64,000 bases of DNA from Tagaea sp. (GTDB taxonomy: Bacteria; Pseudomonadota; Alphaproteobacteria; CACIAM-22H2): the NCBI GenBank assembly GCA_044378015.1, contig JBILXZ010000003.1:17931-81930 (forward strand), read 5' to 3'. Positions within the stretch are counted from its first letter, which is position 1. Each line of letters begins with the position of its first letter. The notes beneath the pieces were generated by a model. The model made no database searches, had not been told where the DNA came from, and was given only the letters and a program-made list of their open reading frames with translations. Below, one piece after another: positions 32,645-59,672 of this stretch. The translations under genes were made by a program, and so were the position numbers.

Positions 32645-32953
32645 GGTCGACGCAGCCGTCATCCAAAAGATTCGTGCATATCGATTGCGGCTAAGGTACC
32701 GAACCTCAAATCGCCGGAGGTTTCGCGAACAAGGCCTGGTGCGAGCGGTGCTTCGACTGCAGATCAATTTTCTGATGAAGAAGTGCAAACGTCACGTACA
32801 CGATTGAGCGTATGCGGACGATCGGAAATAAGTCGGGCATTCGCATGCCCATCGTTGCCGACACTGCATTTGATTTCGCCAAACCGCGTTATTGACGAAG
32901 CGATGCGGCATATTTTATCCATAAGAATATCGAATTCTCCGGAGAAAAGAGAA

Positions 32954-33202
32954 ATGGCTGCATTTGAAGCGCTGAGCGGTCGATTTCGCATCGGCGAGCG
33001 AAGCGGTGCCGACTATGCGCTGGTTTCGGCGATCATGCCGGACATTTGCGTTTCGGCGCGGCTGTCGCTCAGCGAAATCAAGACGCTGTTCGGACGCTGC
33101 AGTACCGACAGCACGACCCCCAAACTTTTCGCGAAAGCCGAGAGATCTGTCGTGGCTAGCGCAGTCAAGAGCGTCGCGAGTCAGACGGCGCGCGCGGCCT
33201 GA
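32954..33202 (+). CDS. Hypothetical small protein (82 aa) in lower-GC spacer
   Basis: SD GGAG lies upstream of the ATG (MAAFEALSGRFRIGERSG…). It is antisense to a long spurious ORF. No family was recognised. Confidence 0.3.
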   Translation: MAAFEALSGRFRIGERSGADYALVSAIMPDICVSARLSLSEIKTLFGRCSTDSTTPKLFAKAERSVVASAVKSVASQTARAA

Positions 33203-33274
33203 AGTCGGCGGGAAGGCCGATCTGGTGCGGCGATCCGCTCTGCCATAAGCTGCAACCATGAAGGGTTCGAAACC

Positions 33275-34324
33275 ATGCGTCGACGTCTGATCGCCGCAGC
33301 CGCTTTGATGTGCGCAGACTTTTTGGGGCCGATTTCCGGGCATGCGGCAGAGCCGGAAATGACGCTGCGGATCGTCGGCGGCCTTGCGGGCCAGCCGGTC
33401 TACGCGGCCAAGGAGGTGCCGTTTTGGCAGACGCGAATCGCGGCGGCGACCGGCGGGCGCCTCAAAGGCGAGATCACGCCGTTCGACCGCAGCGGCATTC
33501 GCCCCGAAGAGATGCTGAATCTGATCCAGCTCGGGGCGATGCCGTTCGGAACGGTCCAATTCGGTCCGGCTTCTCTGTTCGAGCCCTTCCTGCTGGGCTA
33601 CGATCTGCCGGGTCTGAATCCCGATTTCGCTTCTTTGCGCGCGAACGCGGCGGCATTTCGCGCGCAAATCGAAAAGCATTTGCGCGATCAGCACGACGTC
33701 GAGCTGCTCGCGGTCTATACTTACCCGGCTCAGCTCGTTTTCTGCGCCGAACCGTTCTCGGATCTTTCGCAGCTTGCGGGCCGCCGGGTCCGCGCCGCGA
33801 GTGCCGCCACCTCGCGCATGCTCGAAGCCTTGGGCGCGCTGCCCGTCCTCGTTCCCTTCGCGCAAGTCGTCGATGCCGTCCACAAGCGCGTCGTAGACTG
33901 CGTCGTCACCGCCGCGACGTCGGGCAACATTCTGGGCCTGCATCGCGCGACGACGCACATCAGCCCGATGCCGATCAACTTCGGACCAATGGGTTTCATG
34001 GCCAACGGGGCGGCGTGGCGCAAGATACCCAAAGATCTGCAGGACATTCTGCGCCGCGAACTCGCCGTTCTCGAGGCCGAGATATGGGACATGTCGGAGC
34101 ACGACACGCGCGACGGGCTCGCCTGCAACGTCGGACAGAAAGCGTGCGCCCTCGGCGAGCGCGGCAAGATGATGCTCGTGCCCGTCTCGGCCGCCGACGA
34201 ACGGCGCATGCGCGAGATTCTGCGCACCCTCGTTCTGCCCGAATGGATCGCGCGTTGCGGCGAGACGTGCCGCAGCGTTTGGAACGAAACGCTGGGCGCC
34301 AAGCTCGACATGCCGATTCCATGA
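33275..34324 (+). CDS. TRAP-transporter DctP-family periplasmic solute-binding protein (orphan, no DctQM partner)
   Basis: Signal peptide MRRRLIAAAALMCADFLGPISGHAAEP. DctP-family motifs are present (…EEMLNLIQLGAMPFGTV…, …LAGRRVRAASAATSRMLEALGALPVLVPFAQVVDAVHKRVVD…). Confidence 0.75.
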   Translation: MRRRLIAAAALMCADFLGPISGHAAEPEMTLRIVGGLAGQPVYAAKEVPFWQTRIAAATGGRLKGEITPFDRSGIRPEEMLNLIQLGAMPFGTVQFGPASLFEPFLLGYDLPGLNPDFASLRANAAAFRAQIEKHLRDQHDVELLAVYTYPAQLVFCAEPFSDLSQLAGRRVRAASAATSRMLEALGALPVLVPFAQVVDAVHKRVVDCVVTAATSGNILGLHRATTHISPMPINFGPMGFMANGAAWRKIPKDLQDILRRELAVLEAEIWDMSEHDTRDGLACNVGQKACALGERGKMMLVPVSAADERRMREILRTLVLPEWIARCGETCRSVWNETLGAKLDMPIP

Positions 34325-34348
34325 TCTCCAGCGGCGAGCGCGTTCAGC

Positions 34349-37300
34349 ATGGCTAGTTTGAAGCGACGCGCAATGGCGCTCGGCGCAGGGCTCGCGCTGT
34401 GCGCGATCCTGGGCGCCGCGACGGCGCTTGTGCTCGCGCGCGGCGAGGCGGCGGCGGTCGCCGTGCTCCGCGGTTCGGTTGCCAGCATCGCCGCGAACAC
34501 CGGCGTGCGCATCGACCGCGAATTGCTTCAGACCGAAACGCTTCTTGCCCGCGTGCCGCTGATACTGCGATCGCTCGACGGCGCGGCGCCCGAAACCGTC
34601 GTCAGCCGCGAGCTGTGGCTGTTCGCCGACCAGTCGACGCTGCTGCGCGACATCCTCGTTGTGGCGGCGGACGGCCGCGTGCTCGCGTCGGCCTTGCCCG
34701 CAGCAAGCCGCTTGCCGCCGGAAACTCTGGCCGCGCTGCTCGGCAGTCTCTATCGGGGTGCGGGCGAAACGGTGGCGATCGCTTTCCCGCAGCGCAACCG
34801 GACAACCGGCGAATGGGTCACGCTGATCGGCCGGACGGTCGAAATCCCGGGTGCAGGCGAAGTTCTGGCGGTCGGGGAGGTCGAAGTGCCCGTCCTCTCC
34901 GAGATGATCGCCGATCGCGGGCCGCTCGAACGGCGCATGGCGATCGAACTGCGCGATGGCCGCTTGATTGCCGCCTCGCCGCACGACGAAATCGGGATGG
35001 GGCTGGTGCGCCAGCCGCTTCCGGAAATTCTGCTCGCACCCGAGAGCCAGTCGCTGGTCGGTGCTCTGCGCGGCAGCGGCGCCGAAACCGCCGTCGCGGT
35101 TCGAACGCTGCACAATCGCGCTTTGGTGCTGGTCGCAACCCTCGACCTGCATGCGGGCTTGGCCGACTGGCGCGCCGAGCGCAACCGGATCGCGGTTGCC
35201 GCAGCCGCATTTGCGGCGCTGATCCTTTCGTTCGCGGCCTTTGCGCATCGCGCGCAGAAAATCCGCTTGCGTTTGATGGATCGCTTGGCGCTGCAGGTTG
35301 CCGTCGTCGAAAACGCCGGAGAGACGATCGTTGTCGCCGATCCGAACGGCTGCATTCTATGGGTCAATCCGGCGTTCGAACGCAGGACCGGCTACACGGC
35401 CGCCGAAGTCGTGGGCAAGCGTCCGGGTGCGTTTCTCCAGGGACCCGACACGGACCCCGCGGCGGTCGCAAGACTTCGCAGAGCGGTCGTAACGCAGCGC
35501 AATTGCGACGTCGAAATCCTCAACTACGCAAAATCGGGCGAGAGGTACTGGCAGCGCGTGCGGCTGGCGCCTGTTCGCGACAGTCTCGGCGAGCTCACGC
35601 ATTTCATTTCCGTCCAGACCGACGTGACGCGCGAGCGCGAGCAGCTCGCGAATCTGGCCGCAGCCAAGCTGGAAGCGGAGCGCAATCTGGCGGTCGCAAG
35701 CGTCGCGCACGGCCAGCTGCGCAACGCCATGGATGCCATGCGCGAGGGCCTGATGCTGCTCGACCGCGACGACCGTCTGCTCAAGTGGAATGCGCAGTTC
35801 GAGGCCAAGCTCGGCCTGCCGCCGGAATTCCTGCGCGAAGGCATGAGCCTGCTGGAGCTGACGCTGGGCGCCCTCGAGATCCGCGAACCGAAGCTGTCGC
35901 CTGCCCTCCGCGCCGGCAAAGCGGCCGCGCGCGTCGCCGTCCATCGCCAGCCGCACATGCGCGAGGAAGAGCTCTCGGTGCGCGGCCGAACGGTCGTGCT
36001 CCGGCGCACGCTGCTGCCGGACGGCGGAATAATGTACGTTTATCGCGACGTGACCGACGAACGGTTTGCGACCGAGCAGCTGCGACGCGCCAACGACGTG
36101 CTGCACGCGTCCGAGACGCGTCTTGCGCTGGCGCTCGAAACGGCGAATCTCGGCTGGTGGGAGCGTGCCGCCGACGGCCGCGTCGGTTGGAGCGCGCGGG
36201 CGCGCGAGATCTGGGGCATCGCGCCCGAAATCGTTCCGAGCGTCGAGGCGTGGCGCAGCTGCCTGCATCCCGACGACCGAGACACCGTCGACGATTCGCT
36301 GGAGCTTCCCGACGGCCGCCATGTGCGCAACTATCGCGTCGTCCACGCGGACGGCAGCGTGCGTTACGTGCGCTCGCAGCGCCTGATCACGCGCGAGAGC
36401 GGCGCTGGCGGCGTGGTGGCGCTGGGAACCGTTCTCGACTGCACCGACCTCGAAACGCTGCGGCAGGCGGCCGAGCGCGACCGCGAGACGCTGGCCAGCG
36501 CGATCAATGCGATGCGCGACGGCATTCTCCTCTACGATGCGGGCGAACGTCTCGTTTCGTGGAACGGCCGCATCGTCGAGATTTGCCCGTGGCTCGAAGG
36601 CGCCCTGGCGCCGGGGCTCGCCTATGCCCGCATCGTGCGCGCGGAACTCGAGCGCGCCGACGGAGACCGCACGCCCGCAGAGATCGAAGAGGCGGTCGCC
36701 GAGCGCCGCCGATCCTTCGCCGAAGACGACGGCAGGATGTTCGAGATCGCGATCGAGGGGCGCGTTCTGCATACGACGCGCATTCCGGTCGCCGCCGGCG
36801 GATCGCTCGGAATCGTGCGCGACGTGACCGAGCAGAAGGCCTACCAAGCCGAACTCGAAGAGGCGCGGCGCGCGGCCGAGGCTGCCAACGAAGCAAAGAC
36901 GCGCTTTCTCGCCAACATGAGCCACGAACTGCGCACGCCGCTCGCGGGCATCGTGTCGATGCTGGGCCTGCTCGACGAGGCCGCTCTCGACGAAGAGGGA
37001 CGGCGGCAGGTGTCCTACGCGCGCGGATCGGCCCAGCACCTGATCGGCGTGGTCGGCAACATTCTCGATCTGTCGAAGCTCGAGATTTCCGATATCGTCC
37101 TCAACCGCCACCCGTTCGATCTCGTCTTGCTGGTGAACGATTCGGTCCAGCCGCTCGGCGCGATGGCGCGCAGAAAAGGTCTCGAACTCGAAGTCGCGAT
37201 CGCGGAATCCGCGCGGGGCTTGCGTGTCGGCGACGCGGCGCGCATCCGCCAGATTCTGACCAATCTGGTCGGCAACGCGATCAAACTCACGGCGGTCGGC

Positions 37301-38389
37301 CGCGTGTCGGTCGCGATTTCGGCGGCGGGCGATTTCGTCACCTTCGCGGTGGCCGATATCGGACCGGGCATTGCGCGCGGCCAGCAGCATCGCCTGTTCG
37401 AGGATTTCGTCCAGATCGATTCGTCGAGCGCGCGGCGCCACGAAGGCGCGGGCCTGGGCCTCGCGATCAGCCGCCGTCTCGCGACCGCGATGGCAGGCGA
37501 CCTTGCGGTCGAAAGCGACGTCGGGCGCGGCGCGACGTTCCGCCTTGTGCTGCCGCTGCCGCCGTTTGCCGGGCCGTTGCCGGCCCTCGCCGAGCCGGCG
37601 GCGGCGCCCGCACCGCTCGACGGCATGTGGCTGCTGCTGGCCGAGGACAACGAAGTGAACCGCTACGGGATCGTGCGCATCCTCGAAGCGCTGGGCGCCA
37701 AGGTCGACGCGGTCGGCGACGGCGCCGCGGCGGTCGCGGCCGCCGCACGGCGCCGCTACGACGCGATTCTGATGGATGTCCAGATGACCGGCATCGACGG
37801 GCTTGAGGCCACGCGCGAAATCCGCGCCACCAGCGGCCCGAACGCGGGCACGCTGATCGTCGCATTGACGGCCAACGCCTTCACGGCCGACCGCAACGAG
37901 TGCCTGCGCGTCGGCATGGATCGGTTTCTGGCGAAGCCGGTCGATGCCGCCGATCTTTGCGAGGCCTTGGCCGATTCGGCGCGCGTGCGGGCTGCGCGTG
38001 CCGCGCCGCAAACGGCGCTGCCCGCCGCGGACCCCGCCTCGTGGATCGACCGCGTGCGCATCGGCAAACTGGAAGCTGACGGCGGCGCGGGGTTTGCCGA
38101 AAGCTTGATCGGGCGCTTCGCGTCGACCCTCGAATCCGAATTGCAGTCCCTCGACGGGGCTTTGGCGGCCGGCGATGTCGTCAAGGTCGCGGCGCTGGGC
38201 CATGCGCTCAAAAGCTCTTCGCGCATGGTCGGTGCGGCGGGCCTTGGCGAAGCCGCCGAGACGCTCGAACGCATCGCGTTCGACGCGGCACCCGAAACGC
38301 TGCGCGAAGCGATCGCCGCCTTCGGCCTGCGCGCGCGGCATTTCCGCGATTTCGCGGCCCGCTTTTTGGAGTCCGACAAAAAAAAGTGA
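34349..38389 (+). CDS. Unorthodox hybrid sensor histidine kinase (TM-periplasmic Cache-like-TM-4xPAS-HisKA-HATPase_c-REC-HPt)
   Basis: 1346 aa. Two TM segments flank a periplasmic domain of about 250 aa. HisKA H-box MSHELRTPL, then N/G boxes, then a receiver (LLLAEDNEVNRY…DVQMTGIDG), then a C-terminal HPt (GHALKSSSRMVGAAGL). Confidence 0.9.
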   Translation: MASLKRRAMALGAGLALCAILGAATALVLARGEAAAVAVLRGSVASIAANTGVRIDRELLQTETLLARVPLILRSLDGAAPETVVSRELWLFADQSTLLRDILVVAADGRVLASALPAASRLPPETLAALLGSLYRGAGETVAIAFPQRNRTTGEWVTLIGRTVEIPGAGEVLAVGEVEVPVLSEMIADRGPLERRMAIELRDGRLIAASPHDEIGMGLVRQPLPEILLAPESQSLVGALRGSGAETAVAVRTLHNRALVLVATLDLHAGLADWRAERNRIAVAAAAFAALILSFAAFAHRAQKIRLRLMDRLALQVAVVENAGETIVVADPNGCILWVNPAFERRTGYTAAEVVGKRPGAFLQGPDTDPAAVARLRRAVVTQRNCDVEILNYAKSGERYWQRVRLAPVRDSLGELTHFISVQTDVTREREQLANLAAAKLEAERNLAVASVAHGQLRNAMDAMREGLMLLDRDDRLLKWNAQFEAKLGLPPEFLREGMSLLELTLGALEIREPKLSPALRAGKAAARVAVHRQPHMREEELSVRGRTVVLRRTLLPDGGIMYVYRDVTDERFATEQLRRANDVLHASETRLALALETANLGWWERAADGRVGWSARAREIWGIAPEIVPSVEAWRSCLHPDDRDTVDDSLELPDGRHVRNYRVVHADGSVRYVRSQRLITRESGAGGVVALGTVLDCTDLETLRQAAERDRETLASAINAMRDGILLYDAGERLVSWNGRIVEICPWLEGALAPGLAYARIVRAELERADGDRTPAEIEEAVAERRRSFAEDDGRMFEIAIEGRVLHTTRIPVAAGGSLGIVRDVTEQKAYQAELEEARRAAEAANEAKTRFLANMSHELRTPLAGIVSMLGLLDEAALDEEGRRQVSYARGSAQHLIGVVGNILDLSKLEISDIVLNRHPFDLVLLVNDSVQPLGAMARRKGLELEVAIAESARGLRVGDAARIRQILTNLVGNAIKLTAVGRVSVAISAAGDFVTFAVADIGPGIARGQQHRLFEDFVQIDSSSARRHEGAGLGLAISRRLATAMAGDLAVESDVGRGATFRLVLPLPPFAGPLPALAEPAAAPAPLDGMWLLLAEDNEVNRYGIVRILEALGAKVDAVGDGAAAVAAAARRRYDAILMDVQMTGIDGLEATREIRATSGPNAGTLIVALTANAFTADRNECLRVGMDRFLAKPVDAADLCEALADSARVRAARAAPQTALPAADPASWIDRVRIGKLEADGGAGFAESLIGRFASTLESELQSLDGALAAGDVVKVAALGHALKSSSRMVGAAGLGEAAETLERIAFDAAPETLREAIAAFGLRARHFRDFAARFLESDKKK

Positions 38390-38461
38390 CGCGCGTGGAG
38401 CTGCACGACGCCGGGAGCCGGTGAGCGCGGTCGGGCCGAAGGCACGCGCCGGCTTCCTTTG

Positions 38462-39247
38462 CTATCTGCCGCGAAAGCGGGGTTTGCGCTTTTCAAGGAA
38501 GGCCGCTCGGCCCTCCTTGTAGTCGTCGCTGGCAAAGCAGGCGGCCGCCATTTCGCGGCAGACTGCGATGTCGCGCGCGTCGGGATCTTTCAGGATTTCG
38601 ACGGCGATGCGCTTGACCGCCGCGATCGTCAGCGGCGCGTTGTCGGCGATGGCGGCCGCCATTTCCATGGCCGTTGCCGCAAGCGCTTCGTGGGCAACCA
38701 CGCGGTTGAGGAGGCCCCATTGCCGCGCTTCGTCGCAGCCGAAGCGGCGGGCGGTGAAAAAGATCTCTTTCGTGGCGGCGGGTCCGATCGTTTCCATGCA
38801 GCGGCGCAAGCCCTCGTAGCCGTAGCCGAGACCGAGCTTTGCCGCGGGCAACGCGAAAACGGCTTTTTCGCTCGCCACGCGCATGTCGCAGCAGAGCGCG
38901 AGCGCAAGTCCGCCGCCCATGCAGTAGCCGTTGATCATCGCGATGGTCGGTTTTGGAAACGCATAGAGCCGTTCGGAGACCCGATCGACGACGTCGTTGT
39001 AGATCGCCGCCGCCTCGGCCGTCGCGCGCTCGCTTGCGAATTTCGAAATGTCCGCGCCCGACGCGAACGCCTTGTCGCCCGCCCCCGTCAGCACGACGAC
39101 GCGCAGATCGGCGTCGGCGGCGAAAGTGTCGAGGATTTCGCCCGTGCGCTGCCACATCTCGAGCGATAGGGCGTTGTGTTTTTCGGGATTGTCGAACGTC
39201 ACGATCCCGATGCGGCCGTCTTTGCGCGCCAGTATTCCATCCGTCAT
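38462..39247 (-). CDS. Enoyl-CoA hydratase/isomerase (crotonase family)
   Basis: 261-aa C-terminal part of track ORF 38462..40522, starting MTDGILARKDGRIGIVTFDNPEKHNALS. Has the oxyanion-hole residues (GAGDKAF…). Confidence 0.85.
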   Translation of the reverse strand: MTDGILARKDGRIGIVTFDNPEKHNALSLEMWQRTGEILDTFAADADLRVVVLTGAGDKAFASGADISKFASERATAEAAAIYNDVVDRVSERLYAFPKPTIAMINGYCMGGGLALALCCDMRVASEKAVFALPAAKLGLGYGYEGLRRCMETIGPAATKEIFFTARRFGCDEARQWGLLNRVVAHEALAATAMEMAAAIADNAPLTIAAVKRIAVEILKDPDARDIAVCREMAAACFASDDYKEGRAAFLEKRKPRFRGR

Positions 39248-39261
39248 TTCCTGTCCGCTCC

Positions 39262-40446
39262 TCAAATCGTGCCGGCGCTTCTGAGCGCCGCAATCTCGTC
39301 GGCGTCCAACCCGAACTCGGCGAGAATCTCGTCGGTGTGGCCGCCGCGCGGCGGCGACGCGCGGGCAATTCGGCTCGGGCTGCGGCTCAGCGCCACCGGC
39401 TGGCCCATCAGCGAAAGATCGCTGTCGGCGACTTTCTGGGCAACGCCCAGATGCCGGATCTGCGGATCGGCGAACATCTCGTCGATCCGGTAGATCGGCC
39501 CGCACGGCACGCCCGCCGCATTGAGCGTGGCGATCCATTGGGCCGTATCGAGGTCGCGAAAACGCGCCTGCAGCGCCGCGTTGAGCGCGTCGCGATTGGC
39601 CGAGCGCAGCTCCGGCGTGGCGTAGGCGGGTTCGGCGATCAACGCACCGAGACCCATTGCCTGCGCGCAGCGCTCCCAGATCGCCTGGCCGGTCGTGGCG
39701 AGATTGAGATGGCCGTCTTTGGTCTCGAACACGCCGGTCGGGATGATCGTCGGATGGTTGTTGCCCGCCTGGCCCGCCACCTCGCCCGCCACGAGATAGC
39801 GCGCGGCCTGGAAATCGAGCATGAAAGCCTGCGCCTGCAGCAGCGAGGTCTGCACCCATTGGCCGCGGCCGGACACTTCGCGCTCGAGCAATGCCGTCAA
39901 GATTCCGAGCGCGCAAAACAGGCCCGCAGTGAGGTCGGCAAGCGGAATGCCCGTGCGCAACGGTCCCTGGCCCGGCACGCCGGTCACCGACATGAGCCCG
40001 CCCATGCCTTGCGCGATCTGGTCGAAACCCGGGCGCGTCGCGTAGGGCCCGTCCTGGCCGAAACCGGAAATGCTGCCGTAGACGATACGCGGATTGATCG
40101 CCTGAAGGTCGTCGTAGGCAATGCCGAGGCGGCGTTTGACGTCGGGCCGGAAGTTTTCGACGACGACGTCGGCCTTGGCGACGAGTCGGCAAAACAGCGC
40201 CGCACCGGCCGGCGCCTTGAGATCGAGCGCGAGGCTGCGTTTGTTGCGATGCAGATTCATGAAATCCGCCCCGTCGCGCGCCGCGCCCATCGGATCGCCG
40301 TCCTCCATGTGCGCAGGCAGCTCGATCTTCACGACATTGGCGCCCCAATCGGCGAGCTGGCGCACGCAGGCCGGGCCCGCGCGCACGCGCGTGAGATCGA
40401 GCACGGTGAAGCGTTTGAGGGCGCTCGAGGCTTCGGCGGCTGGCAT
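39262..40446 (-). CDS. CoA-transferase family III (CaiB/BaiF-like)
   Basis: Starts …LKRFTVLDLTRVRAGPACVRQLADWGANVVKIE…, typical of formyl-CoA transferase/CaiB-family enzymes. Confidence 0.85.
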   Translation of the reverse strand: MPAAEASSALKRFTVLDLTRVRAGPACVRQLADWGANVVKIELPAHMEDGDPMGAARDGADFMNLHRNKRSLALDLKAPAGAALFCRLVAKADVVVENFRPDVKRRLGIAYDDLQAINPRIVYGSISGFGQDGPYATRPGFDQIAQGMGGLMSVTGVPGQGPLRTGIPLADLTAGLFCALGILTALLEREVSGRGQWVQTSLLQAQAFMLDFQAARYLVAGEVAGQAGNNHPTIIPTGVFETKDGHLNLATTGQAIWERCAQAMGLGALIAEPAYATPELRSANRDALNAALQARFRDLDTAQWIATLNAAGVPCGPIYRIDEMFADPQIRHLGVAQKVADSDLSLMGQPVALSRSPSRIARASPPRGGHTDEILAEFGLDADEIAALRSAGTI

Positions 40447-40539
40447 GTCGGTTTCTGTTTCCCCCGGTTTTGACCGTGCGGTCGCTTGCGCATAAGCTGC
40501 GGTCGTTCGGCGGGGAAGTCAAACGCGGGGGCTTGCGGC

Positions 40540-42192
40540 ATGGGCGTGGATTTCGTCTGCGAAAAGCGTCCGGCTATCGGCTCGCGCGGCATGGTCGTCA
40601 CCAACCATCCGCTTGCCTCGGCCGCTGCAGCCGAGTGTCTGCTTGCCGGAGGCAACGCGATCGACGCGGCCGTAACGGCGCTGTTCGCGCTCAGCGTGGT
40701 CGAGCCGATGATGGTGGGCCCGCTCGGCGGCGGTCTTGCGCATATCCGGCTCGCCGACGGCAGTCACCGCGTGATCGACGCGCTGGGTACCGCACCGCGC
40801 AACGCCCGGCCCGACATGTACGAACCGGTCTCGACCGAGCTTTCCAAAAGGCGCGACACCAAGGGTCGCGCCAACGAGTTCGGCCCGCTGGCCGTGGCAG
40901 TACCGGGTGCTTTGGCGGGTTGGTGTCTCGCCCTCGAGAAATACGGCACGATTTCGCTTGCCGACGCGGTCGCCCCCGCAATTCGCCACGCCGAAACGGG
41001 CTTCCGCGCCACGTCGTATTTGGCCGACTGCGTGGCCGACACGGCGGCGCATCTTGCCGGCGACCCGGCCCATGCGGCAACGTTCCTGCCGGGCGGCGCG
41101 CCATTGGCGACGGGCGCGCGCGTGGTGCAGCCGGAATTGGCGGCCAGCCTGCGCTTGATCGCCGAACAAGGCCCTGCAGCCCTTTACGACGGGCCGCTCG
41201 GCCAAGCGCTTGCGGCCCACATGGCCGCCAATGGCGGCCTCGTCGACGCGCAGGATCTTGCCGCATACCGGCCGATCGAACGGGCCCCGGTCGTCGGCAC
41301 CTATCGCGGCTACGAGATCGTCGGACCGCCGCCGCCGTCGTCGGCGGGCGTGCATATCGCGCAAATGCTGAATCTGCTGGAGCCCTACGATCTCGCGAAG
41401 ATGGGCTTCGGCTCGGCCGACGCCGCGCATCTGCTGGCCGAGGCCATGCGCATCGCCTTCGCCGACCGCGCGGTCGCCACGGCCGATCCGGCGTTTGTCG
41501 ATGTGCCGGTCGCGCGCATCGTCTCGAAAGACTATGCCGCGTCGCGCGGACGCGCCATCAAGCTCGAGCGCACCCAGGATTGGGGTCCGGGGATTTCGGC
41601 GGGCGAGTCCGCGAACACCACGCATGTGACGGTCGCCGACGCGTCCGGCAATATCGTGGCGAGCACGCAGACGCTCAACGGCGTGTTCGGCGCTTGCGTG
41701 TCGATTCCGGGCACGGGCCTTGCGGCCAACGACTACATGCACAATTTCGATCCGCATCCGGGCAACGCGCTGTCGATCGCCCCGGGAAAACGCGTGTACA
41801 CGTCGATGGCGCCGACGATCGTCAAGCGCGACGGCAAGCCGGTTTTCGCCTTGGGTCTGCCGGGGGGCTTGCGCATATTCCCTTCCGCGATGCAGGCGAT
41901 CGTCAACCTGATCGACCACGGCATGGGCGCCCAAGAGGCCGTCGAAGCGCCGCGCATCTGGACCGAGGGCGGCGTGCTCGAACTCGAGCCCGGCGTTGCC
42001 GAGGCGACCGCCGCAGATCTGGCGCGCCGCGGCCATCGCATCCAGCGCGTCAAGCGCATCGCGGGCGGAATGGGTTGCGTGCTTTTCGGATCCGACGGCA
42101 TGCTCACGGGCGCGGCGTGCTGGCGCGCGGACGGCACGCCGGTGGCCGTCTCGGGCGGTCTTGCGCGTCCGGGCGTGCGTTTCGCGGTTTAG
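40540..42192 (+). CDS. Gamma-glutamyltransferase family protein, no signal peptide (likely cytoplasmic)
   Basis: Has the autoprocessing site region TTHVTVADASGN. Starts MGVDFVCEKRP without an N-terminal signal peptide. Confidence 0.8.
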   Translation: MGVDFVCEKRPAIGSRGMVVTNHPLASAAAAECLLAGGNAIDAAVTALFALSVVEPMMVGPLGGGLAHIRLADGSHRVIDALGTAPRNARPDMYEPVSTELSKRRDTKGRANEFGPLAVAVPGALAGWCLALEKYGTISLADAVAPAIRHAETGFRATSYLADCVADTAAHLAGDPAHAATFLPGGAPLATGARVVQPELAASLRLIAEQGPAALYDGPLGQALAAHMAANGGLVDAQDLAAYRPIERAPVVGTYRGYEIVGPPPPSSAGVHIAQMLNLLEPYDLAKMGFGSADAAHLLAEAMRIAFADRAVATADPAFVDVPVARIVSKDYAASRGRAIKLERTQDWGPGISAGESANTTHVTVADASGNIVASTQTLNGVFGACVSIPGTGLAANDYMHNFDPHPGNALSIAPGKRVYTSMAPTIVKRDGKPVFALGLPGGLRIFPSAMQAIVNLIDHGMGAQEAVEAPRIWTEGGVLELEPGVAEATAADLARRGHRIQRVKRIAGGMGCVLFGSDGMLTGAACWRADGTPVAVSGGLARPGVRFAV

Positions 42193-42195
42193 CCG

Positions 42196-43161
42196 ATGGC
42201 CGAAAAAATCGTCGTCGTCGACATGCTCAGCGAAACCAACGCGGCACGCCTGCGCGCATTGCTGCCCGAGGGTTTCGCGCTGACGCACGGCACGGTGCCC
42301 GGAGAGGGCCATCTCAAGGAAATCTTGGCCGACGCGGACTACGCGATATCGGGCCAGCTCGCCGTCACGGGCGATGTCCTGCGTGCGGCCAAGAAACTCA
42401 AGCTCCTGCACAAATGGGGCGTGGGCGTCGACAATCTCGACATCGAAACCGCGCGCGAACTCGGCATCAAGGTCGCGCGCACCGCTGGCTCGAACGCCGT
42501 CGCGGTCGCGGAATTCACGCTCGGGCTGATCCTTTCGACCCTTCGCCACATCGCGTTCGGCCACCTGCACCTGCAGCGCGGCGAGTGGCGCGGCGGGCGC
42601 CTGCCGCGGGACAATTTCGCGCTGTCGAAAAAGACCGTGGGCCTCGTCGGCTTCGGCGCCATCGGCCAGACCGTGGCGAAACTGCTGGCCGGTTTCGGCT
42701 GCGCGATCCTCTACACCCAGCGCAACCGCGCGAGCGCCGGGATCGAGGCGGCGACCGGCGCGCGTTTCGTCGCGCTGCCGGAGCTGCTCGGCGCCAGCGA
42801 CGTCGTATGCCTGCATTGCCCGCTCACGCCGCAGACCGTCGGCATGATCGACTACGTTGCCTTGTCGGCGATGAAACGAACGGCGATCCTCGTCAACGTC
42901 GCGCGCGGCGGGGTGGTGGTCGAAGCCGATCTCGTGCGCGCGCTGCGCGAGGGCGTCATCCATGCCGCCGCCATGGACGTATTCTCGGTCGAGCCGCTGC
43001 CGGCCGACAGCATTCTGTGCGGGCTCGACAATCTCGTGATCACGCCGCACATCGCGGCAATGACGGCCGACAGTTTCGCGCCCACCGTCAAGCGAATGTT
43101 CGCCAATATCGAGGCCGTGTCGCGCGGCGAGCCGCTGCCGCCCGGCGACGTGGTGGCGTAG
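42196..43161 (+). CDS. D-isomer-specific 2-hydroxyacid dehydrogenase (NAD-binding)
   Basis: Has the Rossmann GLVGFGAIGQ motif and catalytic His/Glu/Arg positions. Starts 4 nt after the GGT stop. Confidence 0.85.
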   Translation: MAEKIVVVDMLSETNAARLRALLPEGFALTHGTVPGEGHLKEILADADYAISGQLAVTGDVLRAAKKLKLLHKWGVGVDNLDIETARELGIKVARTAGSNAVAVAEFTLGLILSTLRHIAFGHLHLQRGEWRGGRLPRDNFALSKKTVGLVGFGAIGQTVAKLLAGFGCAILYTQRNRASAGIEAATGARFVALPELLGASDVVCLHCPLTPQTVGMIDYVALSAMKRTAILVNVARGGVVVEADLVRALREGVIHAAAMDVFSVEPLPADSILCGLDNLVITPHIAAMTADSFAPTVKRMFANIEAVSRGEPLPPGDVVA

Positions 43162-45072: not shown

Positions 45073-45185
45073 GGGGGCCCGTTCCGCGCAGATCGGCGGC
45101 TTGAACCCCCTTGGGACCGGCCCCCGGCAGCCCTATATTGCGCGGCGATTCGTCCCCCCCAATCGGTTCGCCTCTCGGAGTTGCC

Positions 45186-46004
45186 ATGACCGACGCCGTT
45201 ACCGCCGCCGCATCCGACCGCAGCTTTCGCGCCCGTTTGCGCCAATGGGTCGAGTCCGAGCCCGTCCAGCGCGCGGTCATGGCTCTGATCGTGCTCAACG
45301 CGGTCACGCTGGGCCTCGAAACCTCGCGAACCGTCATGGAAGCCATCGGCGGTTTTCTGATGCTTCTCGACGCCGCCATTCTCGCGGTCTTCGCGGTCGA
45401 ACTCGCGCTGCGCATCGCGGCGCACGGGCTGCGCTTCTTCCGCGGCGGCTGGAACTGGTTCGACCTGATCGTCGTCGCGATCGCCCTCGTTCCGGCGTCG
45501 GGGCCGCTGTCGGTGCTGCGCGCGTTGCGCGTGCTGCGCGTGCTGCGGCTCGTGTCGATCGTGCCGTCGATGCGCTCGATCGTCGAAGCGCTGCTGCGCT
45601 CGCTGCCGGGCATGTCGGCGATCATGGCGCTGCTGCTGCTGGTGTTCTACGTGTTCGCGGTGATGGGCACGAAGCTGTTCGGCGAGACCCAGCCCGAGCA
45701 GTTCGGCACGCTGGGAGCGACGTTCCTCACGCTGTTCCAGCTGATGACGCTCGACGGCTGGTCGGGGGAAATCGTGAAACCGGCGCTGGAAGACCATCCG
45801 GCGGCGATGCTGTATTTCCTGCCCTTCATTCTGGTGTCGACGTTCGTGGTGCTGAACCTGTTCATCGCCCTCATCGTCGATTCGATGACGCGCCTGCACG
45901 CCGAGAGCGCCGCCGAGAAGCCCGATCCGCATGCGGCGCTCGCCCTCCAGGTCGAAGCGCTGGCAGGCGAAGTTCGCGCCTTGCGCGAGAAGCTGGCGGG
46001 CTGA
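45186..46004 (+). CDS. Bacterial voltage-gated ion channel, NaChBac/BacNav family (single 6-TM domain)
   Basis: The S4 segment has 4 Arg at every third position (LRALRVLRVLRLVS). The pore is TLFQLMTLDGWSG. The C-terminal neck and coiled-coil (ALALQVEALAGEVRALREKL) and overall collinearity match NaChBac. Confidence 0.85.
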   Translation: MTDAVTAAASDRSFRARLRQWVESEPVQRAVMALIVLNAVTLGLETSRTVMEAIGGFLMLLDAAILAVFAVELALRIAAHGLRFFRGGWNWFDLIVVAIALVPASGPLSVLRALRVLRVLRLVSIVPSMRSIVEALLRSLPGMSAIMALLLLVFYVFAVMGTKLFGETQPEQFGTLGATFLTLFQLMTLDGWSGEIVKPALEDHPAAMLYFLPFILVSTFVVLNLFIALIVDSMTRLHAESAAEKPDPHAALALQVEALAGEVRALREKLAG

Positions 46005-46521: not shown

Positions 46522-48819
46522 TTGTCCGCGGCCGTTCGGCTAAACGAAAAGCATGCGCGTCTGAGGCAAAGCCGCGCCGATCTTCGGGGTGTCTTTCGCT
46601 TGGCCGATTCGTCCGTTTCATCCGCTGCGCCGTCGCCGCCCGCGCAGATCGGCCGCGCGCAGGCGCTGCATCGGCGTCCCGTCACCTACCTGCTTTTGGG
46701 CTTGGTTCTGTCGCTCGCGCTGGCGGCGCTTGCAACGCTCGAGCGCCGCACCGACGTCGAGACGCGCTTTGCGATCCAAACCGAGCGGTTCGTCGCGGCG
46801 CTTGCGAGCCATCTCCGCGTCTACGAGACAGCCTTGTCCGGCGGGGCAGCGCTTTTCGCCGCCTCCGGGGAAATCACGCGGGCCGAATGGGCCGTCTATG
46901 TCGCCGCCACGCGCGTGCGCGAAACGCTGCCGGGCAACCAGGCGTTCGGTTTTGCCCCCTTCGTGCCGGACGCGGCGCGCGAAGCGCATGCGGCGGCCTT
47001 GCGCGCCGAGGCGGGACCCGACTACGAGATCAGGCCGCCGGGTCCGCGCCCCGTCCACGTACCGATCATGTTCAACGAGCCTTATGTCGGCCGCAACCGC
47101 AGCGTCGTCGGGTTCGACATGTATTCCGAGCCGACGCGCCGTGCCGCGATCGACGCGGCGATCGCGGCACGGCGGCCCACAATGTCGGGCAAAGTCGTGC
47201 TGGCGGGCGAGCAGGGCGACGCGCAGCCGCCGGGATTCGTCGTCTACGCGCCGGTCTTCAAGGGTGCCGCGCCCCAACCGCTGGGTTTCGTTTTCGCGCC
47301 GTTCCGCATGCCCGATCTGATGGCCGGGCTTCAGCGCAGCTGGGATTCGGGCCTCGCTTTCCGCATCTACGACGGCACGCAGAAAACCGAAGCCGCCTTG
47401 ATGCACGCGGCATGGCCGCAGAGCCTCGCCGCGCCGCGCAACGCGCGCGACGTCGCGTTCCAGGCATTGGGGCGCAGCTGGACCGTCGAATTCGGCGCCG
47501 GGCAAAGCTTCGAGCGCAACGACGAGATATGGGCGCCGTGGCTGGTGCTGGCCCTCGGCTTCGCGGCGAGCCTGCTGGTCTTCGCCCAGGCGCGCGCCAT
47601 CGCGAAGATCCAGGCCAGCGCCCAAGCGCTCGCGGACGCCAAAAACGCGTCGGAAGCGGCAAGCCTCGCCAAATCCAGTTTCGTGGCGACCGTGAGCCAC
47701 GAGATCCGCACGCCGATGAACGGCATCATGGGCATTTCCGGGCTGCTGCTCGACACGCCGCTCGACTCCAACCAGCGCGAGCTGGCCGTCGCCATCCGCG
47801 ATTCGAGCGAAAGCCTGCTGCTGATCGTCAACGACGTGCTCGATCTCTCGAAGCTCAACGCCGACCGGCTCGAGTTCGAGCAGATCGCTTTCGACCTTCG
47901 CCAATGCGTGCGCGGCGCTCTCGAGGTCGTGCGCCCGCGCGCCGACGCCAAGGGTCTGGCGCTCGAATTCGAAGCCGATCCGAGCCTGCCCGTCGCGGTC
48001 ACGGGCGATCCGGGCCGCCTGCGCCAGATCGCCCTCAATCTCGTGTCGAACGCCGTGAAGTTCACGGAAACCGGATCGGTGCGCGTCGAGCTGGGCATCG
48101 ACGGCGGGGCCGTCGCCGTCGAAGGCCGCGTCGCGCTGTGCATTGCGGTCAGCGACACGGGCATCGGCATAGCGCCGGCCTATCTGCCCAACGTGTTCGA
48201 AGAGTTCGTGCAGGGCGATGCGTCCGTCGCGCGGCGTTTCGGCGGCACGGGTCTCGGGCTCGCGATCGTGCGCCGTCTTGCCGAGCGGATGGGCGGAACC
48301 GTGCAGGCCGCCAGCACCCTCGGGCGCGGCAGCCGCTTCGAGGTGCGCCTGTCGCTGCCCGTCGCCGCCAGTGCCGCCCGCAAGCGCGAGAACCTGGCGC
48401 TGACCGGCGCCATCGCGCGGCTCGAAGAAGCCGCCGAAGCGCTGGGCCGCCCGATCCGCCTGCTGCTGGCCGAAGACAACGCGACCAACCGCCTCGTCGC
48501 GATCGAGATGCTGAAGCCCTATCCCGTGCGCGTCGACGCGGCGGCAAACGGGCTCGAAGCGGTCGAGGCGGTGCGCACGGCGCCCTACGATCTCGTGCTG
48601 ATGGACGTGAACATGCCCGAGATGGACGGTCTCGACGCCACGCGCGCCATCCGCACGCTGCCGGGCGACGCCGGCCGCGTGCCGATCGTCGCGGTGACGG
48701 CGGGCGCGTTCGACGACGACCGCGCGCGGTCGTTCGCCGTCGGCATGAACGGCTATCTCGCCAAGCCGTTCCGCAAAGCGGCGTTGTTCGAGGAAATCGC
48801 CAACGCCTTGCTGCTCTAG
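46522..48819 (+). CDS. CHASE-domain hybrid sensor histidine kinase/response regulator
   Basis: Has an extracytoplasmic CHASE domain (…[27 protein letters not shown]…) between two TM segments, then HisKA ([11 protein letters not shown]), HATPase_c and a receiver ([11 protein letters not shown]…DVNMPEMDG). The start is a non-ATG (TTG), so it is uncertain. Confidence 0.85.
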
Positions 48820-56563: not shown

Positions 56564-57217
56564 GTGGACGGCGAAGCGTTCGGGGCGTTAGCAACGAGAT
56601 TGGATCCAGCACCGCTGGATCCGCGCCGGGTTCCTTTCGCCGAAATAGGCTCGCGCAGCAGCCGCGCCGAAGCGTGCCCCGCTCTGGTTCTGAACGCCGA
56701 TTTCCGGCCGCTTTCGTATTTTCCGCTGTCGATCTGGTCCTGGCAGGACGCAATCAAGGCCGTGTTCCAGGATCGCGTTAACGTCGTGTCGGAATACGAC
56801 CGCGTGGTCCGCTCGCCCTCGCAAGCGTTCCGCCTGCCGTCGGTTATCTCGCTCAAAGAATACGTGCCTGCCGCGCGCCGTCCGGCTTTCACGCGCTTCA
56901 ACGTGTTCTTGCGCGACCGCTTCGAGTGCCAGTACTGCGCGGAAGCCTTCCCGGCGCCCGAGCTCACCTTCGACCATGTCGTGCCGCGTTCGCGCGGCGG
57001 GCGCACCACTTGGGAAAACGTCGTCACGGCGTGCTCGTGCTGCAATCTGGTCAAGGGCAGCCGCCTGCCGGCCGAGGCGAAAATGTTCCCGCGCCATCGG
57101 CCGATCCAGCCGACGTCGGCGGCGCTGCAGGAAAACGGCCGCGCCTTTCCGCCCAACTATCTGCACCAGAGCTGGCGCGATTTCCTCTATTGGGACGCCG
57201 AGCTGGAGCCGATCTAA
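56564..57217 (+). CDS. HNH endonuclease family protein
   Basis: HNH motif: FECQYC…LTFDHVVPRSRGGRTTWENVVTACSCCNLVKG. The start is a GTG. Confidence 0.75.
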   Translation: MDGEAFGALATRLDPAPLDPRRVPFAEIGSRSSRAEACPALVLNADFRPLSYFPLSIWSWQDAIKAVFQDRVNVVSEYDRVVRSPSQAFRLPSVISLKEYVPAARRPAFTRFNVFLRDRFECQYCAEAFPAPELTFDHVVPRSRGGRTTWENVVTACSCCNLVKGSRLPAEAKMFPRHRPIQPTSAALQENGRAFPPNYLHQSWRDFLYWDAELEPI

Positions 57218-59641: not shown

Positions 59642-59672
59642 TCCTTTCCACCCGCCAACCAGGAGTCCAAAA

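What the first reader, a model, noticed from the sequence alone, without database searches (positions are those of the whole stretch)
32645..38389. Orphan TRAP DctP-family binding protein paired with a 1346-aa unorthodox (HK-REC-HPt) hybrid sensor kinase
A DctP-family periplasmic binding protein with a signal peptide lies 25 bp upstream of, and on the same strand as, a giant hybrid kinase. No DctQ/DctM permease genes are nearby. The kinase has a periplasmic Cache-like domain between two TM segments, four PAS domains and a full phosphorelay cassette. This layout recalls binding-protein-dependent kinases such as TorT/TorS and LuxP/LuxQ, but uses a TRAP-type binding protein. No cognate terminal response regulator is present in the window. 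The pair is preceded by a roughly 600-bp lower-GC spacer that carries an unrecognised 82-aa ORF.
Basis: partly seen in the sequence, partly recalled or inferred. Interest (0 to 1): 0.6.

Follow-up and report, generated by a model that had tools for sequence, protein, structure and literature searches.

The report
TRAP-type binding protein paired with sensor kinase
A periplasmic binding protein of the kind that normally feeds TRAP transporters is here permanently paired with a membrane sensor kinase instead, and the same pairing recurs in well over a hundred other bacteria, which suggests a previously undescribed way of sensing a small organic acid.

Summary
A 349-aa DctP-family binding protein (33275-34324) lies 24 nt upstream of a 1346-aa TM-dCache-TM-4xPAS-HisKA-HATPase-REC-HPt kinase (34349-38389). 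There is no DctQ/DctM and no stand-alone response regulator in the 64 kb.

The pairing is not chance:
- 78 of 80 genome loci fetched through the binding protein have a receptor with the same ~300-aa periplasmic module immediately downstream.
- 44 of 47 metagenome loci fetched through that module have the binding protein immediately upstream.
- The receptor output varies (classic, hybrid or unorthodox kinase, GGDEF-EAL, rarely MCP) while binding protein and sensor module stay together and co-diverge.

The sensor module has a dCache fold but lacks the RxYF pocket motif (0 of 91). The binding protein keeps the TRAP carboxylate-clamp arginine. Best reading: a LuxP/LuxQ- or NspS/MbaA-like co-receptor system built on a TRAP-family binding protein. 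I found no description of this in the searchable literature.

Two corrections. The "82-aa ORF" is the decayed 5' remnant of an MCP gene. Close relatives carry a single-domain response regulator directly after the kinase, and this window has lost it.

No physical interaction or ligand has been shown. Verdict: new variant of a known kind, moderately interesting.

The parts
32645..33274 (.). 630-bp lower-GC spacer between the HpcH/HpaI aldolase gene and the SBP gene. Relatives carry a methyltransferase, a PAS_5 gene and/or an MCP gene here.
   Evidence: GC is about 0.56 against 0.65-0.70 in the flanks. blastn aligns 32949-33131 to the 5' end of the MCP gene of L082/L083, and 33190-33298 to the region just upstream of the SBP in relatives. 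The methyltransferase and PAS_5 genes of L081 have no match in the window.
32954..33202 (+). 82-aa ORF, the decayed 5' remnant of a methyl-accepting chemotaxis protein gene (pseudogene fragment).
   Evidence: Its first 57 aa are 56% identical to residues 1-57 of the 674-aa MCP that lies 70 nt upstream of the SBP in L083/L082 (E 3e-12). There is no Pfam hit. The TM1 segment is interrupted by charged residues, and the tail differs from the 66-aa remnant in L086/L087.
33275..34324 (+). DctP-family (TRAP-type) periplasmic solute-binding protein, 349 aa, of a divergent subfamily that is always paired with a receptor.
   Evidence: Pfam DctP 62.8 bits and NCBIfam TRAP_S1 67 bits. The AF2 model has pLDDT 92.5 and a TRAP SBP fold, with target-normalised TM 0.82-0.84 to 4n4u, 2pfy and 6wgm at 14-20% identity. 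R173 aligns with SiaP R147 and with the GTRFR motif of DctP7. C157, C209, C284, C291 and C332 are invariant and C328 is nearly invariant; the two nearest PDB homologs lack a Cys at the aligned positions that could be read (C157, C209; for 4n4u also C284, C291).
34349..38389 (+). 1346-aa unorthodox hybrid sensor kinase (TM-dCache-TM-PASx4-HisKA-HATPase-REC-HPt).
   Evidence: Pfam and NCBIfam domain calls. It is 78-80% identical over its full length to orthologs in L081/L083. Catalytic motifs are intact.
34448..35182 (+). Periplasmic sensor module (aa ~34-278), a tandem-PDC/dCache fold flanked by TM1 (aa 8-33, nt 34370-34447) and TM2 (aa 279-301, nt 35183-35251). It is the proposed docking partner of the SBP.
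   Evidence: Profile hit to 3lif, E 4.8e-13. Model pLDDT 93.7. Foldseek matches 3lif, Mlp24/37, PctA-C and DctB. The RxYF pocket motif is absent in 0/91 family members. Its divergence tracks the SBP.
35300..36838 (+). Cytoplasmic array of four PAS domains (aa ~318-830).
   Evidence: Pfam PAS/PAS_9 318-427, PAS_7 462-574 plus a second stretch, and PAS_3 612-682. The domain order in the ortholog is given.
36893..37561 (+). HisKA (H859) and HATPase_c kinase core (aa 849-1071).
   Evidence: Pfam; H, N, G1 and G2 boxes.
37634..37969 (+). Receiver (REC) domain, aa 1096-1207.
   Evidence: Pfam Response_reg 83.7 bits; REC HMM.
38105..38308 (+). HPt domain (aa 1253-1320, His1285).
   Evidence: Pfam Hpt 36.7 bits, cutoff 24.6; HALKSS motif.
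38390..38464 (.). 75-nt junction between the kinase stop and the convergent enoyl-CoA hydratase gene. In close relatives a 145-148 aa single-domain response regulator gene sits here.
   Evidence: L081, L083, L085 and L086 all carry the RR (89-92% identical to one another) directly after the kinase. The window has none. blastn shows the flanks align while the ~450-nt RR gene is missing.

Best explanation
The two genes encode a binding-protein-dependent sensor.

Proposed mechanism:
1. The exported DctP-family protein captures a small carboxylate-containing ligand in the periplasm.
2. In a ligand-dependent way it docks on, or changes its grip on, the tandem-PDC (dCache-type) periplasmic module of the kinase.
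3. That module has lost the usual small-molecule pocket motif and acts as a reader of the binding protein.
4. The signal passes through TM2 and the PAS array to the kinase core. Phosphate then moves H859 -> REC Asp -> HPt H1285 -> a response regulator.

In close relatives that regulator is a CheY-like single-domain protein encoded right after the kinase. In this genome the gene has been lost, so the relay must end on an unlinked regulator or the system is partly disabled.

What is shown: gene anatomy, folds, intact catalytic motifs, reciprocal co-conservation, output-domain swapping, co-divergence, lack of DctQM and lack of RxYF.

What is inferred: the physical SBP-sensor contact, the direction of regulation, the ligand identity and the downstream target.
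For: - Anatomy and domains.
- SBP to receptor: 78/80 genome loci have a 700-1060 aa ORF starting about at the SBP stop. The window kinase's N-terminal module is detectable there in 65/80 by tblastn alone.
- Receptor to SBP: 44/47 assessable metagenome loci fetched through the sensor module have the SBP directly upstream on the same strand, and one more has it divergently.
- Output swapping on a constant input. Of the 77 partners classifiable in the genome loci, 36 are HisKA-HATPase-REC, 5 HisKA-HATPase only and 34 GGDEF-EAL; the window kinase (HisKA-HATPase-REC-HPt) is a further case. In a wider sample of 57 there are 32 HK, 18 GGDEF, 1 MCP and 2 HWE/HisKA_2. GGDEF-EAL enzymes do not regulate transporter transcription directly, so adjacency is better explained by a shared periplasmic input.
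- Co-divergence: SBP against sensor distances r = 0.95. The partial correlation controlling for the same receptor's cytoplasmic PAS_7 is 0.77, against 0.18 for the reverse.
- The sensor module has a dCache fold but 0/91 members have the RxYF motif that marks ligand-binding Cache pockets (motif described in PMC6050961).
- The SBP keeps the TRAP carboxylate clamp. R173 equals SiaP R147, with invariant Q153 and T212 at the other two clamp positions.
- No DctQ/DctM in the window or in 83 loci. The five loci with a nearby TRAP operon have their own canonical DctP, about 26% identical to the paired SBP.
- Known precedents for the same logic with other SBP families (LuxP/LuxQ, NspS/MbaA, ChvE/VirA, TorT/TorS, BctC/BctE) are tabulated in PMC8050422.
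Against: - No interaction was measured or modelled; the tools do not offer a complex prediction.
- The closest solved homolog of the sensor module (3lif, rpHK1S-Z16) is reported to bind AI-2 directly and to be activated without any SBP (PMC7584622). A dCache of this general type can therefore sense ligands by itself.
- Absence of RxYF does not prove absence of a pocket. According to the same paper, rpHK1S-Z16 and KinD lack the five PctA pocket residues and still bind AI-2.
- The mirror-tree signal is confounded by shared phylogeny and by unequal evolutionary rates.
- DctQM elsewhere in these genomes cannot be excluded, so the SBP could be dual-function.
- In this window the adjacent RR and the upstream MCP are lost, so the local system may be degenerating.
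Confidence: 0.6

Rival explanations
1. The SBP is a bona fide transport component that serves a DctQM permease encoded elsewhere. Its adjacency to the receptor reflects co-regulation or a dual role in transport and signalling, as for BctC with BctA and BctE.
For: - The protein has a complete TRAP SBP fold with the conserved carboxylate-clamp Arg.
- Orphan SBPs that use distant permeases are known for the TTT family (PMC5812351).
- In 5/51 metagenome loci a full dctPQM operon lies 1-3 kb away.
- Genomes of these taxa usually hold several TRAP systems (my own knowledge).
Against: - There is no DctQ/DctM within +-10 kb in the window and 83 loci.
- Nearby TRAP operons already have their own canonical DctP, of different types in different loci.
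- The SBP subfamily is very divergent: 14-20% identity to solved TRAP SBPs, Pfam score only 63 bits, with subfamily-specific cysteines.
- Partners include GGDEF-EAL enzymes, which do not control transporter transcription directly.
- The reciprocal, near-obligate pairing is not expected for a transport SBP.
Confidence: 0.15
2. The dCache module binds the small-molecule signal directly, as rpHK1S-Z16, PctA or DctB do. The SBP is then an accessory: a ligand scavenger or buffer, a negative regulator in its apo form, or a folding or stability partner, rather than the primary sensor.
For: - The nearest solved homolog, 3lif, binds AI-2 (Kd 0.18 uM) and crystallised with citrate.
- dCache_1 is weakly detectable in 15/57 members.
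- Several polar residues in the distal module are strongly conserved, including R100, E155, R162 and E177. They could line a pocket.
Against: - The RxYF motif is absent in 0/91 members.
- An rpHK1S-Z16-type homolog has no SBP neighbour, so it represents a different, SBP-independent branch.
- The SBP is far better conserved than the sensor module (60-66% against 31-46% between Burkholderiales HK-type and DGC-type systems). This fits the ligand-specific component being the SBP.
- Strict co-occurrence argues for an essential rather than an auxiliary role.
Confidence: 0.15
3. In this particular genome the locus is a decaying remnant. With the adjacent response regulator deleted and the neighbouring MCP, PAS_5 and methyltransferase genes lost, the SBP-kinase pair no longer has an output and is on its way to pseudogenisation.
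For: - The RR is present in all four close relatives that extend far enough and is missing only here.
- The MCP is reduced to an 82-aa fragment with a disrupted TM1.
- The methyltransferase and PAS_5 genes of L081 are absent.
- There is no stand-alone RR anywhere in the 64 kb.
Against: - Both ORFs are full-length, without frameshifts, at 73-80% identity to orthologs, and have coding-type GC3 of 0.79-0.82.
- All catalytic motifs are intact.
- Most HK-type members of the family in other lineages also lack an adjacent RR, so an unlinked partner is the norm for the family.
Confidence: 0.1

Closest known systems
LuxP/LuxQ (Vibrio harveyi AI-2 sensor)
   Same: A periplasmic SBP encoded next to, and acting through, a membrane hybrid kinase whose periplasmic region is a tandem PAS/PDC (dCache-like) domain that does not itself bind the signal. 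Output is a multi-step phosphorelay (PMC8050422 Table 1).
   Different: LuxP is a Peripla_BP_4 (ribose-binding-protein type) SBP, not DctP/TRAP. LuxQ lacks the PAS array and the HPt, which is the separate LuxU. The window kinase scores 241 bits against the LuxQ model cutoff of 1200, and Pfam LuxQ-periplasm was not detected.
NspS/MbaA (Vibrio cholerae polyamine sensor)
   Same: An SBP gene directly upstream of a receptor with a dCache-like periplasmic domain, with no cognate transporter. The GGDEF-EAL output is identical to that of about 40% of the family found here.
   Different: NspS is SBP_bac_8 (PotD-like). The window's receptor is a kinase, not a GGDEF-EAL enzyme.
TorT/TorS (TMAO sensor)
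   Same: An SBP-dependent unorthodox HK-REC-HPt kinase. TIGR02956 TorS gives the best NCBIfam match to the cytoplasmic half (316 bits).
   Different: TorT is Peripla_BP_1. The TorS periplasmic sensor is an all-helical bundle, not dCache. The score is far below the TorS cutoff of 676.5.
TRAP transporters (DctPQM; SiaPQM; Bordetella DctP6/DctP7)
   Same: The SBP fold and the carboxylate-clamping Arg. The best PDB sequence match is DctP7 (2pfy, E 2e-21). According to PMC5812351, the cognate membrane genes in B. pertussis appear non-functional for one of that pair (DctP6/DctP7).
   Different: No DctQ/DctM partner, obligate pairing with a signalling receptor, subfamily-specific cysteines, and only 14-20% identity to solved members.
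BctC/BctE (Bordetella citrate TTT system)
   Same: An SBP of a secondary (non-ABC) tripartite transporter family that signals through a sensor kinase.
   Different: BctC is TctC-family and also serves its transporter BctBA encoded alongside. The BctE sensor domain is 2CSK_N, not dCache.
rpHK1S-Z16 (PDB 3lif) and GcbC, direct-binding dCache diguanylate cyclases
   Same: The closest solved structure to the sensor module: profile E 4.8e-13, Foldseek E 2e-12, target-normalised TM 0.74.
   Different: It has the RxYF motif (RSYF) and binds AI-2 or citrate itself. An rpHK1S-Z16-type homolog has no SBP gene upstream. Identity is only about 20%.

Membership tests
TRAP transporter (DctPQM) system | DctP-family (PF03480) extracytoplasmic solute receptor | tested here: met
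   Pfam DctP 62.8 bits > 23.4; NCBIfam TRAP_S1 67 > 50; TIGR00787 dctP 44 < 175. TRAP SBP fold, target-normalised TM 0.82-0.84.
TRAP transporter (DctPQM) system | DctQ and DctM membrane subunits encoded with the SBP | tested here: not met
   None in the 64-kb window (Pfam; tblastn YiaM/YiaN) nor in 83 related loci. The query's sensitivity was shown. The rest of the genome was not available.
TRAP transporter (DctPQM) system | Conserved Arg that clamps the substrate carboxylate (SiaP R147) | tested here: met
SBP-dependent signalling receptors (LuxPQ / NspS-MbaA / ChvE-VirA type) | SBP gene adjacent to the receptor gene and co-conserved with it | tested here: met
   78/80 and 44/47 in the reverse direction.
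SBP-dependent signalling receptors (LuxPQ / NspS-MbaA / ChvE-VirA type) | Direct, ligand-modulated binding of the SBP to the receptor's periplasmic domain | not testable with these tools
   No multimer prediction or experiment was available. The only indirect support is co-divergence and loss of the RxYF motif.
LuxQ (NF041947) / LuxQ-periplasm (PF09308) | Score above the curated cutoff | tested here: not met
   NF041947 241 bits against a cutoff of 1200. PF09308 is not among the Pfam hits.
TorS (TIGR02956) | Score above the curated cutoff, and a helical TorS sensor domain | tested here: not met
   316.6 bits against 676.5, matching only residues 837-1311. The periplasmic domain has a dCache fold.
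dCache_1 (PF02743) sensor domains | Pfam gathering score | tested here: not met
   21.4 bits against 45 for the window protein. dCache_1 is detected at E<=1e-3 in 15 of 57 family members.
dCache_1 (PF02743) sensor domains | Tandem PDC fold between two TM helices | tested here: met
   Model pLDDT 93.7. Foldseek top hits are 3lif, Mlp24/37, PctA-C and DctB. Profile hit to 3lif, E 4.8e-13.
dCache_1 (PF02743) sensor domains | RxYF ligand-pocket motif of the membrane-distal module | tested here: not met
   0 of 91 family sequences carry R-x-[YF]-[FYW] in the equivalent region. The columns aligned to 3lif RSYF are unconserved.
Unorthodox (H1-D1-H2) hybrid histidine kinase | HisKA His, HATPase N/G1/G2 boxes, REC and HPt His in one polypeptide | tested here: met
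   H859, N-box 975, G1 1003, G2 1033, REC 1096-1207 and HPt H1285.

The most novel reading that the evidence does not exclude
A whole clade of TRAP-family (DctP) binding proteins has left transport altogether. It serves as the dedicated ligand-binding subunit of a family of dCache receptors that have given up their own pocket. This two-gene input module has been plugged onto kinases, phosphorelays, c-di-GMP enzymes and at least one chemoreceptor across Alpha- and Betaproteobacteria. It would be the first TRAP-family SBP shown to act in signal transduction. It would also add a 14th SBP family to the 13 listed as signalling partners.
Probability: 0.5. Interest if true: 0.65.

Novelty: new variant of a known kind. 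Interest (0 to 1): 0.55.

Why it matters
SBP-dependent receptors are known from only about a dozen characterised cases, and the reviews read here list none that uses a TRAP/DctP-family protein (PMC8050422, PMC9602780).

If the pairing is functional, it has three consequences:
- It defines a widespread input module: more than 580 matches in a one-genome-per-species collection, and 188 sensor-module clusters.
- That module controls two-component signalling in Acetobacteraceae, Azospirillaceae and Telmatospirillum-like bacteria, and c-di-GMP turnover in Comamonadaceae.
- It implies that these genes, currently annotated as 'TRAP transporter substrate-binding protein', are mis-assigned to transport.

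The system is directly testable: one soluble protein for ligand screening, one periplasmic domain for binding assays, and easy read-outs (c-di-GMP, biofilm) in culturable Acidovorax, Alicycliphilus and Azospirillum strains.

Tried and rejected
- The search for homologous proteins with the Ala-rich sensor module returned nothing, a word-index failure. The exhaustive HMMER scan replaced it.
- The search for related loci with the 34-sequence sensor alignment failed for lack of a conserved stretch. A 12-sequence alignment worked.
- I considered that ORFs of 1230-1290 aa in L014, L058 and L063 were SBP-receptor fusions. This was rejected. They are artefacts of my ORF caller extending the receptor frame upstream over the SBP gene, and one search shows a separate SBP stop.
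- I considered that the MCP upstream in relatives shares the sensor module and might be a second client of the SBP. This was rejected. Its periplasmic region is helical, and BLASTP shows no similarity.
- I considered that the experimentally studied AI-2 receptor rpHK1S-Z16 belongs to this SBP-coupled family. This is not supported. A 55%-identical homolog has no SBP neighbour. The exact R. palustris locus could not be retrieved.
- Ligand inference was left as a weak lead only. The best PDB neighbours include pyroglutamate binders (2pfy, 6wgm), and a gamma-glutamyltranspeptidase gene lies near the pair in two unrelated lineages. However, all TRAP SBPs score almost equally and identity is below 20%.
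- The sigma-70 promoter scan found nothing and is uninformative for this taxon.
Full report
**1. What is in the window**

The window is about 66% GC, and its genes show the GC3 bias typical of a high-GC proteobacterium.

Two ORFs on the + strand match the finding: 33275..34324 (349 aa) and 34349..38389 (1346 aa). They are 24 nt apart with no terminator-like structure between them.

The first protein:
- It scores as a DctP-family TRAP solute-binding protein, Pfam PF03480 at 62.8 bits and NCBIfam TRAP_S1 at 67 bits.
- It has a basic and hydrophobic N-terminus consistent with export.

The second protein:
- It has hydrophobic segments at residues 8-33 and 279-301.
- It has four PAS domains, HisKA, HATPase_c, REC and HPt.
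- The H-box (H859), N/G1/G2 boxes and the HPt histidine (H1285) are intact.

The periplasmic region between the TM segments reaches only 21 bits on Pfam dCache_1 (cutoff 45). Two further results settle the fold:
- A profile of 34 family members matches PDB 3lif at E 4.8e-13 over residues 38-281.
- An AlphaFold2 model (pLDDT 93.7) matches 3lif, Mlp24/37, PctA-C and DctB, which are tandem-PDC/dCache structures.

The binding-protein model (pLDDT 92.5) has the TRAP SBP fold, with target-normalised TM 0.82-0.84 to 4n4u, DctP7 (2pfy) and 6wgm. Identity to these is only 14-20%.

**2. The surroundings**

Pfam annotation of about 40 window genes shows housekeeping and metabolic genes: infB, pgk, ffh, rpsP, rimM, rplS, leuCD, asd and others.
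- Just upstream of the pair is an HpcH/HpaI aldolase gene.
- Downstream lie a convergent enoyl-CoA hydratase, a family III CoA-transferase, a gamma-glutamyltranspeptidase and a 2-hydroxyacid dehydrogenase.

There is no DctQ or DctM. E. coli YiaM/YiaN find nothing in the window or in 83 related loci. The same query finds DctM in other loci, so it is sensitive enough.

A REC-domain HMM on the six-frame translation hits only three proteins, all hybrid kinases:
- this one;
- a PAS-HK-REC at 4313-6262 (-);
- a CHASE-HK-REC at 46522-48819 (+).

**3. Is the pairing real?**

The binding protein has many relatives: 177 clusters at E<=1e-5. The relatives are mostly Acetobacteraceae (Roseomonas and allies), Azospirillum, Methylobacteriaceae, Hyphomicrobiaceae and Burkholderiales/Comamonadaceae.

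*Forward test.* In 78 of the 80 best loci, a 700-1060 aa ORF begins within a few nucleotides of the SBP stop, often overlapping it. By tblastn alone the window kinase's N-terminal 310 residues are recognisable there in 65 of 80.

*Reverse test.* Loci were fetched from metagenomes through the sensor module.
- 44 of 47 assessable loci have the SBP gene directly upstream on the same strand.
- One more has it divergently.
- Two have none.

No other gene is conserved across lineages.

**4. Output swapping**

The partners share the periplasmic module and a following PAS_7 domain but differ in output.
- In the genome loci, 36 are HisKA-HATPase-REC, some with HPt.
- 5 are plain HisKA-HATPase (Azospirillum).
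- 34 are GGDEF-EAL.
- 30 of 37 GGDEF-EAL partners have intact GGDEF and EAL motifs.

An exhaustive HMMER scan of 1.84 billion representatives finds only 188 clusters with this module. Among 57 diverse members there are 32 kinases, 18 GGDEF proteins, one MCP and two HWE/HisKA_2 kinases.

Within Burkholiales-level comparisons, that is within Burkholderiales, kinase-type and GGDEF-EAL-type systems have SBPs 60-66% identical while their sensor modules are 31-46% identical.

A constant SBP+sensor input with interchangeable outputs is what a two-component input device would show. It is hard to reconcile with an SBP that merely happens to be regulated by its neighbour.

**5. Evidence on mechanism**

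(a) *The pocket motif is missing.* Ligand-binding Cache/PDC domains are characterised by an RxYF motif whose Tyr points into the pocket (PMC6050961). 3lif has RSYF. None of 91 sensor modules of this family has such a motif, and the aligned columns are unconserved. The family instead conserves a different set of polar residues: N56, R57, R100, E155, E177, E200 and R278.

(b) *The SBP keeps the TRAP carboxylate clamp.* Invariant R173 aligns with SiaP R147. Invariant Q153 and T212 occupy the positions of SiaP R127 and N187. The SBP also has five invariant cysteines plus one nearly invariant one. At the aligned positions that could be read, the nearest PDB homologs have no Cys. This fits a periplasmic, disulfide-bonded protein.

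(c) *Co-divergence.* SBP and sensor-module distances over 74 pairs correlate at r = 0.95. Controlling for the cytoplasmic PAS_7 domain of the same receptor leaves a partial correlation of 0.77, whereas SBP against PAS_7 given the sensor drops to 0.18. This suggests co-evolution but is not proof, because of shared phylogeny and rate differences.

**6. The main caveat**

The closest solved homolog, rpHK1S-Z16 (3lif), is reported to bind AI-2 directly (Kd 0.18 uM). Its cyclase activity is reported to be stimulated in membranes prepared from E. coli, that is without an SBP (PMC7584622). It also crystallised with citrate.

A 55%-identical Rhodopseudomonas homolog of that protein has no SBP gene upstream. 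It also reaches the dCache_1 model in the precomputed annotation. I therefore regard it as an SBP-independent sister branch.

It still shows that a dCache of this type can sense by itself. Direct ligand binding by the sensor module, with the SBP as an accessory, remains a live rival.

**7. Transport rival**

In five of 51 metagenome loci a complete dctPQM operon lies 1-3 kb from the pair.
- Each has its own canonical DctP, at 167-271 bits on Pfam against about 63-77 bits for the paired SBPs.
- These DctPs belong to different TRAP subtypes in different loci: 4xfe-like, and TakP/ketoacid-like.
- The one compared (L109) is about 26% identical to the paired SBP.

The paired SBP is thus an additional, specialised paralog. 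A dual transport and signalling role through an unlinked permease cannot be excluded without whole genomes and experiments.

**8. Corrections specific to this window**

Close relatives were examined: SBP 68-75% identical and kinase 78-80% identical, in Telmatospirillum-like MAGs (L081, L083, L085, L086).
- They carry a 145-148 aa single-domain response regulator whose start overlaps the kinase stop.
- It is followed by the same ECH, CoA-transferase, GGT and dehydrogenase genes as in the window.

In the window the ECH gene ends 75 nt after the kinase stop and the regulator gene is absent.

Upstream, L082 and L083 have a 674-aa MCP 70 nt before the SBP. The window's '82-aa ORF' (32954-33202) corresponds to the first 57 residues of that MCP (56% identity, E 3e-12). 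Its TM1 is interrupted by charged residues and its tail is unrelated. L086 and L087 carry a similar 66-aa remnant with a different tail. It is a gene remnant.

The window therefore holds the most reduced version of the locus. The SBP and kinase are nevertheless intact. Most kinase-type family members in other lineages also lack an adjacent regulator.

**9. Comparison with known systems**

The logic is that of LuxP/LuxQ, NspS/MbaA, ChvE/VirA, TorT/TorS and BctC/BctE. These are all listed, with their SBP families, in Table 1 of PMC8050422.
- That table contains no DctP/PF03480 member.
- The TRAP/TTT review mentions signalling only for the TTT protein BctC.
- A 2022 follow-up states that 13 SBP families are known to interact with receptors and predicts that more will be found.
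- Nine full-text searches, with different term sets, found no description of a DctP-family SBP acting through a receptor.

The library lacks most subscription-journal papers, so prior mention elsewhere cannot be ruled out.

The kinase is not a LuxQ or TorS ortholog, since its scores are far below the curated cutoffs. The SBP fails the 'has DctQM' criterion of a TRAP transporter.

**10. Verdict**

The most likely mechanism is SBP-mediated ligand sensing through a pocket-less dCache (confidence about 0.6). Physical interaction, ligand and output remain to be shown. The finding is a new variant of a known kind of system, and it is of moderate interest to specialists in TRAP transporters, Cache sensors and c-di-GMP signalling.

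Noticed in passing
window 32954-33202 (+): The 'unrecognised' 82-aa ORF is the decayed 5' end of an MCP gene that is intact in relatives (L082/L083). A similar 66-aa remnant with a different tail occurs in L086/L087.
   Followed up: yes
window 38390-38464: A single-domain (CheY-like) response regulator gene that overlaps the kinase stop in four close relatives is cleanly missing here. The flanks still align.
   Followed up: yes
window 46522-48819 (+) and 4313-6262 (-): There are two further hybrid kinases without an HPt domain (CHASE-HisKA-HATPase-REC and PAS-HisKA-HATPase-REC). There is no stand-alone response regulator or separate HPt protein anywhere in the 64 kb. The only HPt domain in the window is the one on the 1346-aa kinase.
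   Followed up: partly
window 38465-43161; L081/L083 15560-20258; Comamonadaceae loci (e.g. L028 4289-5914): An ECH / CoA-transferase III / gamma-glutamyltranspeptidase / 2-hydroxyacid dehydrogenase cluster is conserved next to the pair in the window's clade. A GGT gene also lies within 6 kb of the pair in Comamonadaceae. The nearest PDB neighbours of the SBP include pyroglutamate binders. Together this is a weak hint at a gamma-glutamyl or 5-oxoproline-type ligand.
   Followed up: partly
window 33275-34324 (residues C157, C209, C284, C291, C328, C332): The paired SBP subfamily has five invariant cysteines and one nearly invariant one (C328). At the aligned positions that could be read (C157, C209; for 4n4u also C284, C291), DctP7 and BB0719 have no Cys. 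These are probably three periplasmic disulfides and could serve as a subfamily signature.
   Followed up: partly
L109 29-5913; L129 883-5805; L088, L118, L119: In a minority of metagenome loci a complete dctPQM operon with its own canonical DctP sits 1-3 kb from the SBP-receptor pair. In L109 and L088 an FrhB/FdhB-like gene lies in between; in L129 it is a divergent GntR/FCD regulator.
   Followed up: yes
L136 (Rhodopseudomonas sp. B29) 1904-2542: A homolog (55% identity) of the AI-2/citrate-binding dCache cyclase rpHK1S-Z16 (PDB 3lif) has no SBP gene upstream. This separates the direct-binding branch from the SBP-coupled family.
   Followed up: partly
window 45111-46004 (+): A 297-aa Ion_trans/PKD_channel protein, a single-domain voltage-gated-type cation channel homolog.
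   Followed up: no
window 56564-57217 (+) and 58775-63130: A stand-alone HNH endonuclease gene, then a phosphonate-type ABC transporter (ATPase, PhnD-like SBP, permease) with a divergent GntR/UTRA regulator.
   Followed up: no
L045 and L057 (upstream of the SBP); L033, L046: Some Rhodoferax and Burkholderiales loci carry a second GGDEF-EAL receptor gene immediately upstream of the SBP or nearby. I did not check whether it has the same sensor module, which would mean one SBP serving two receptors.
   Followed up: no
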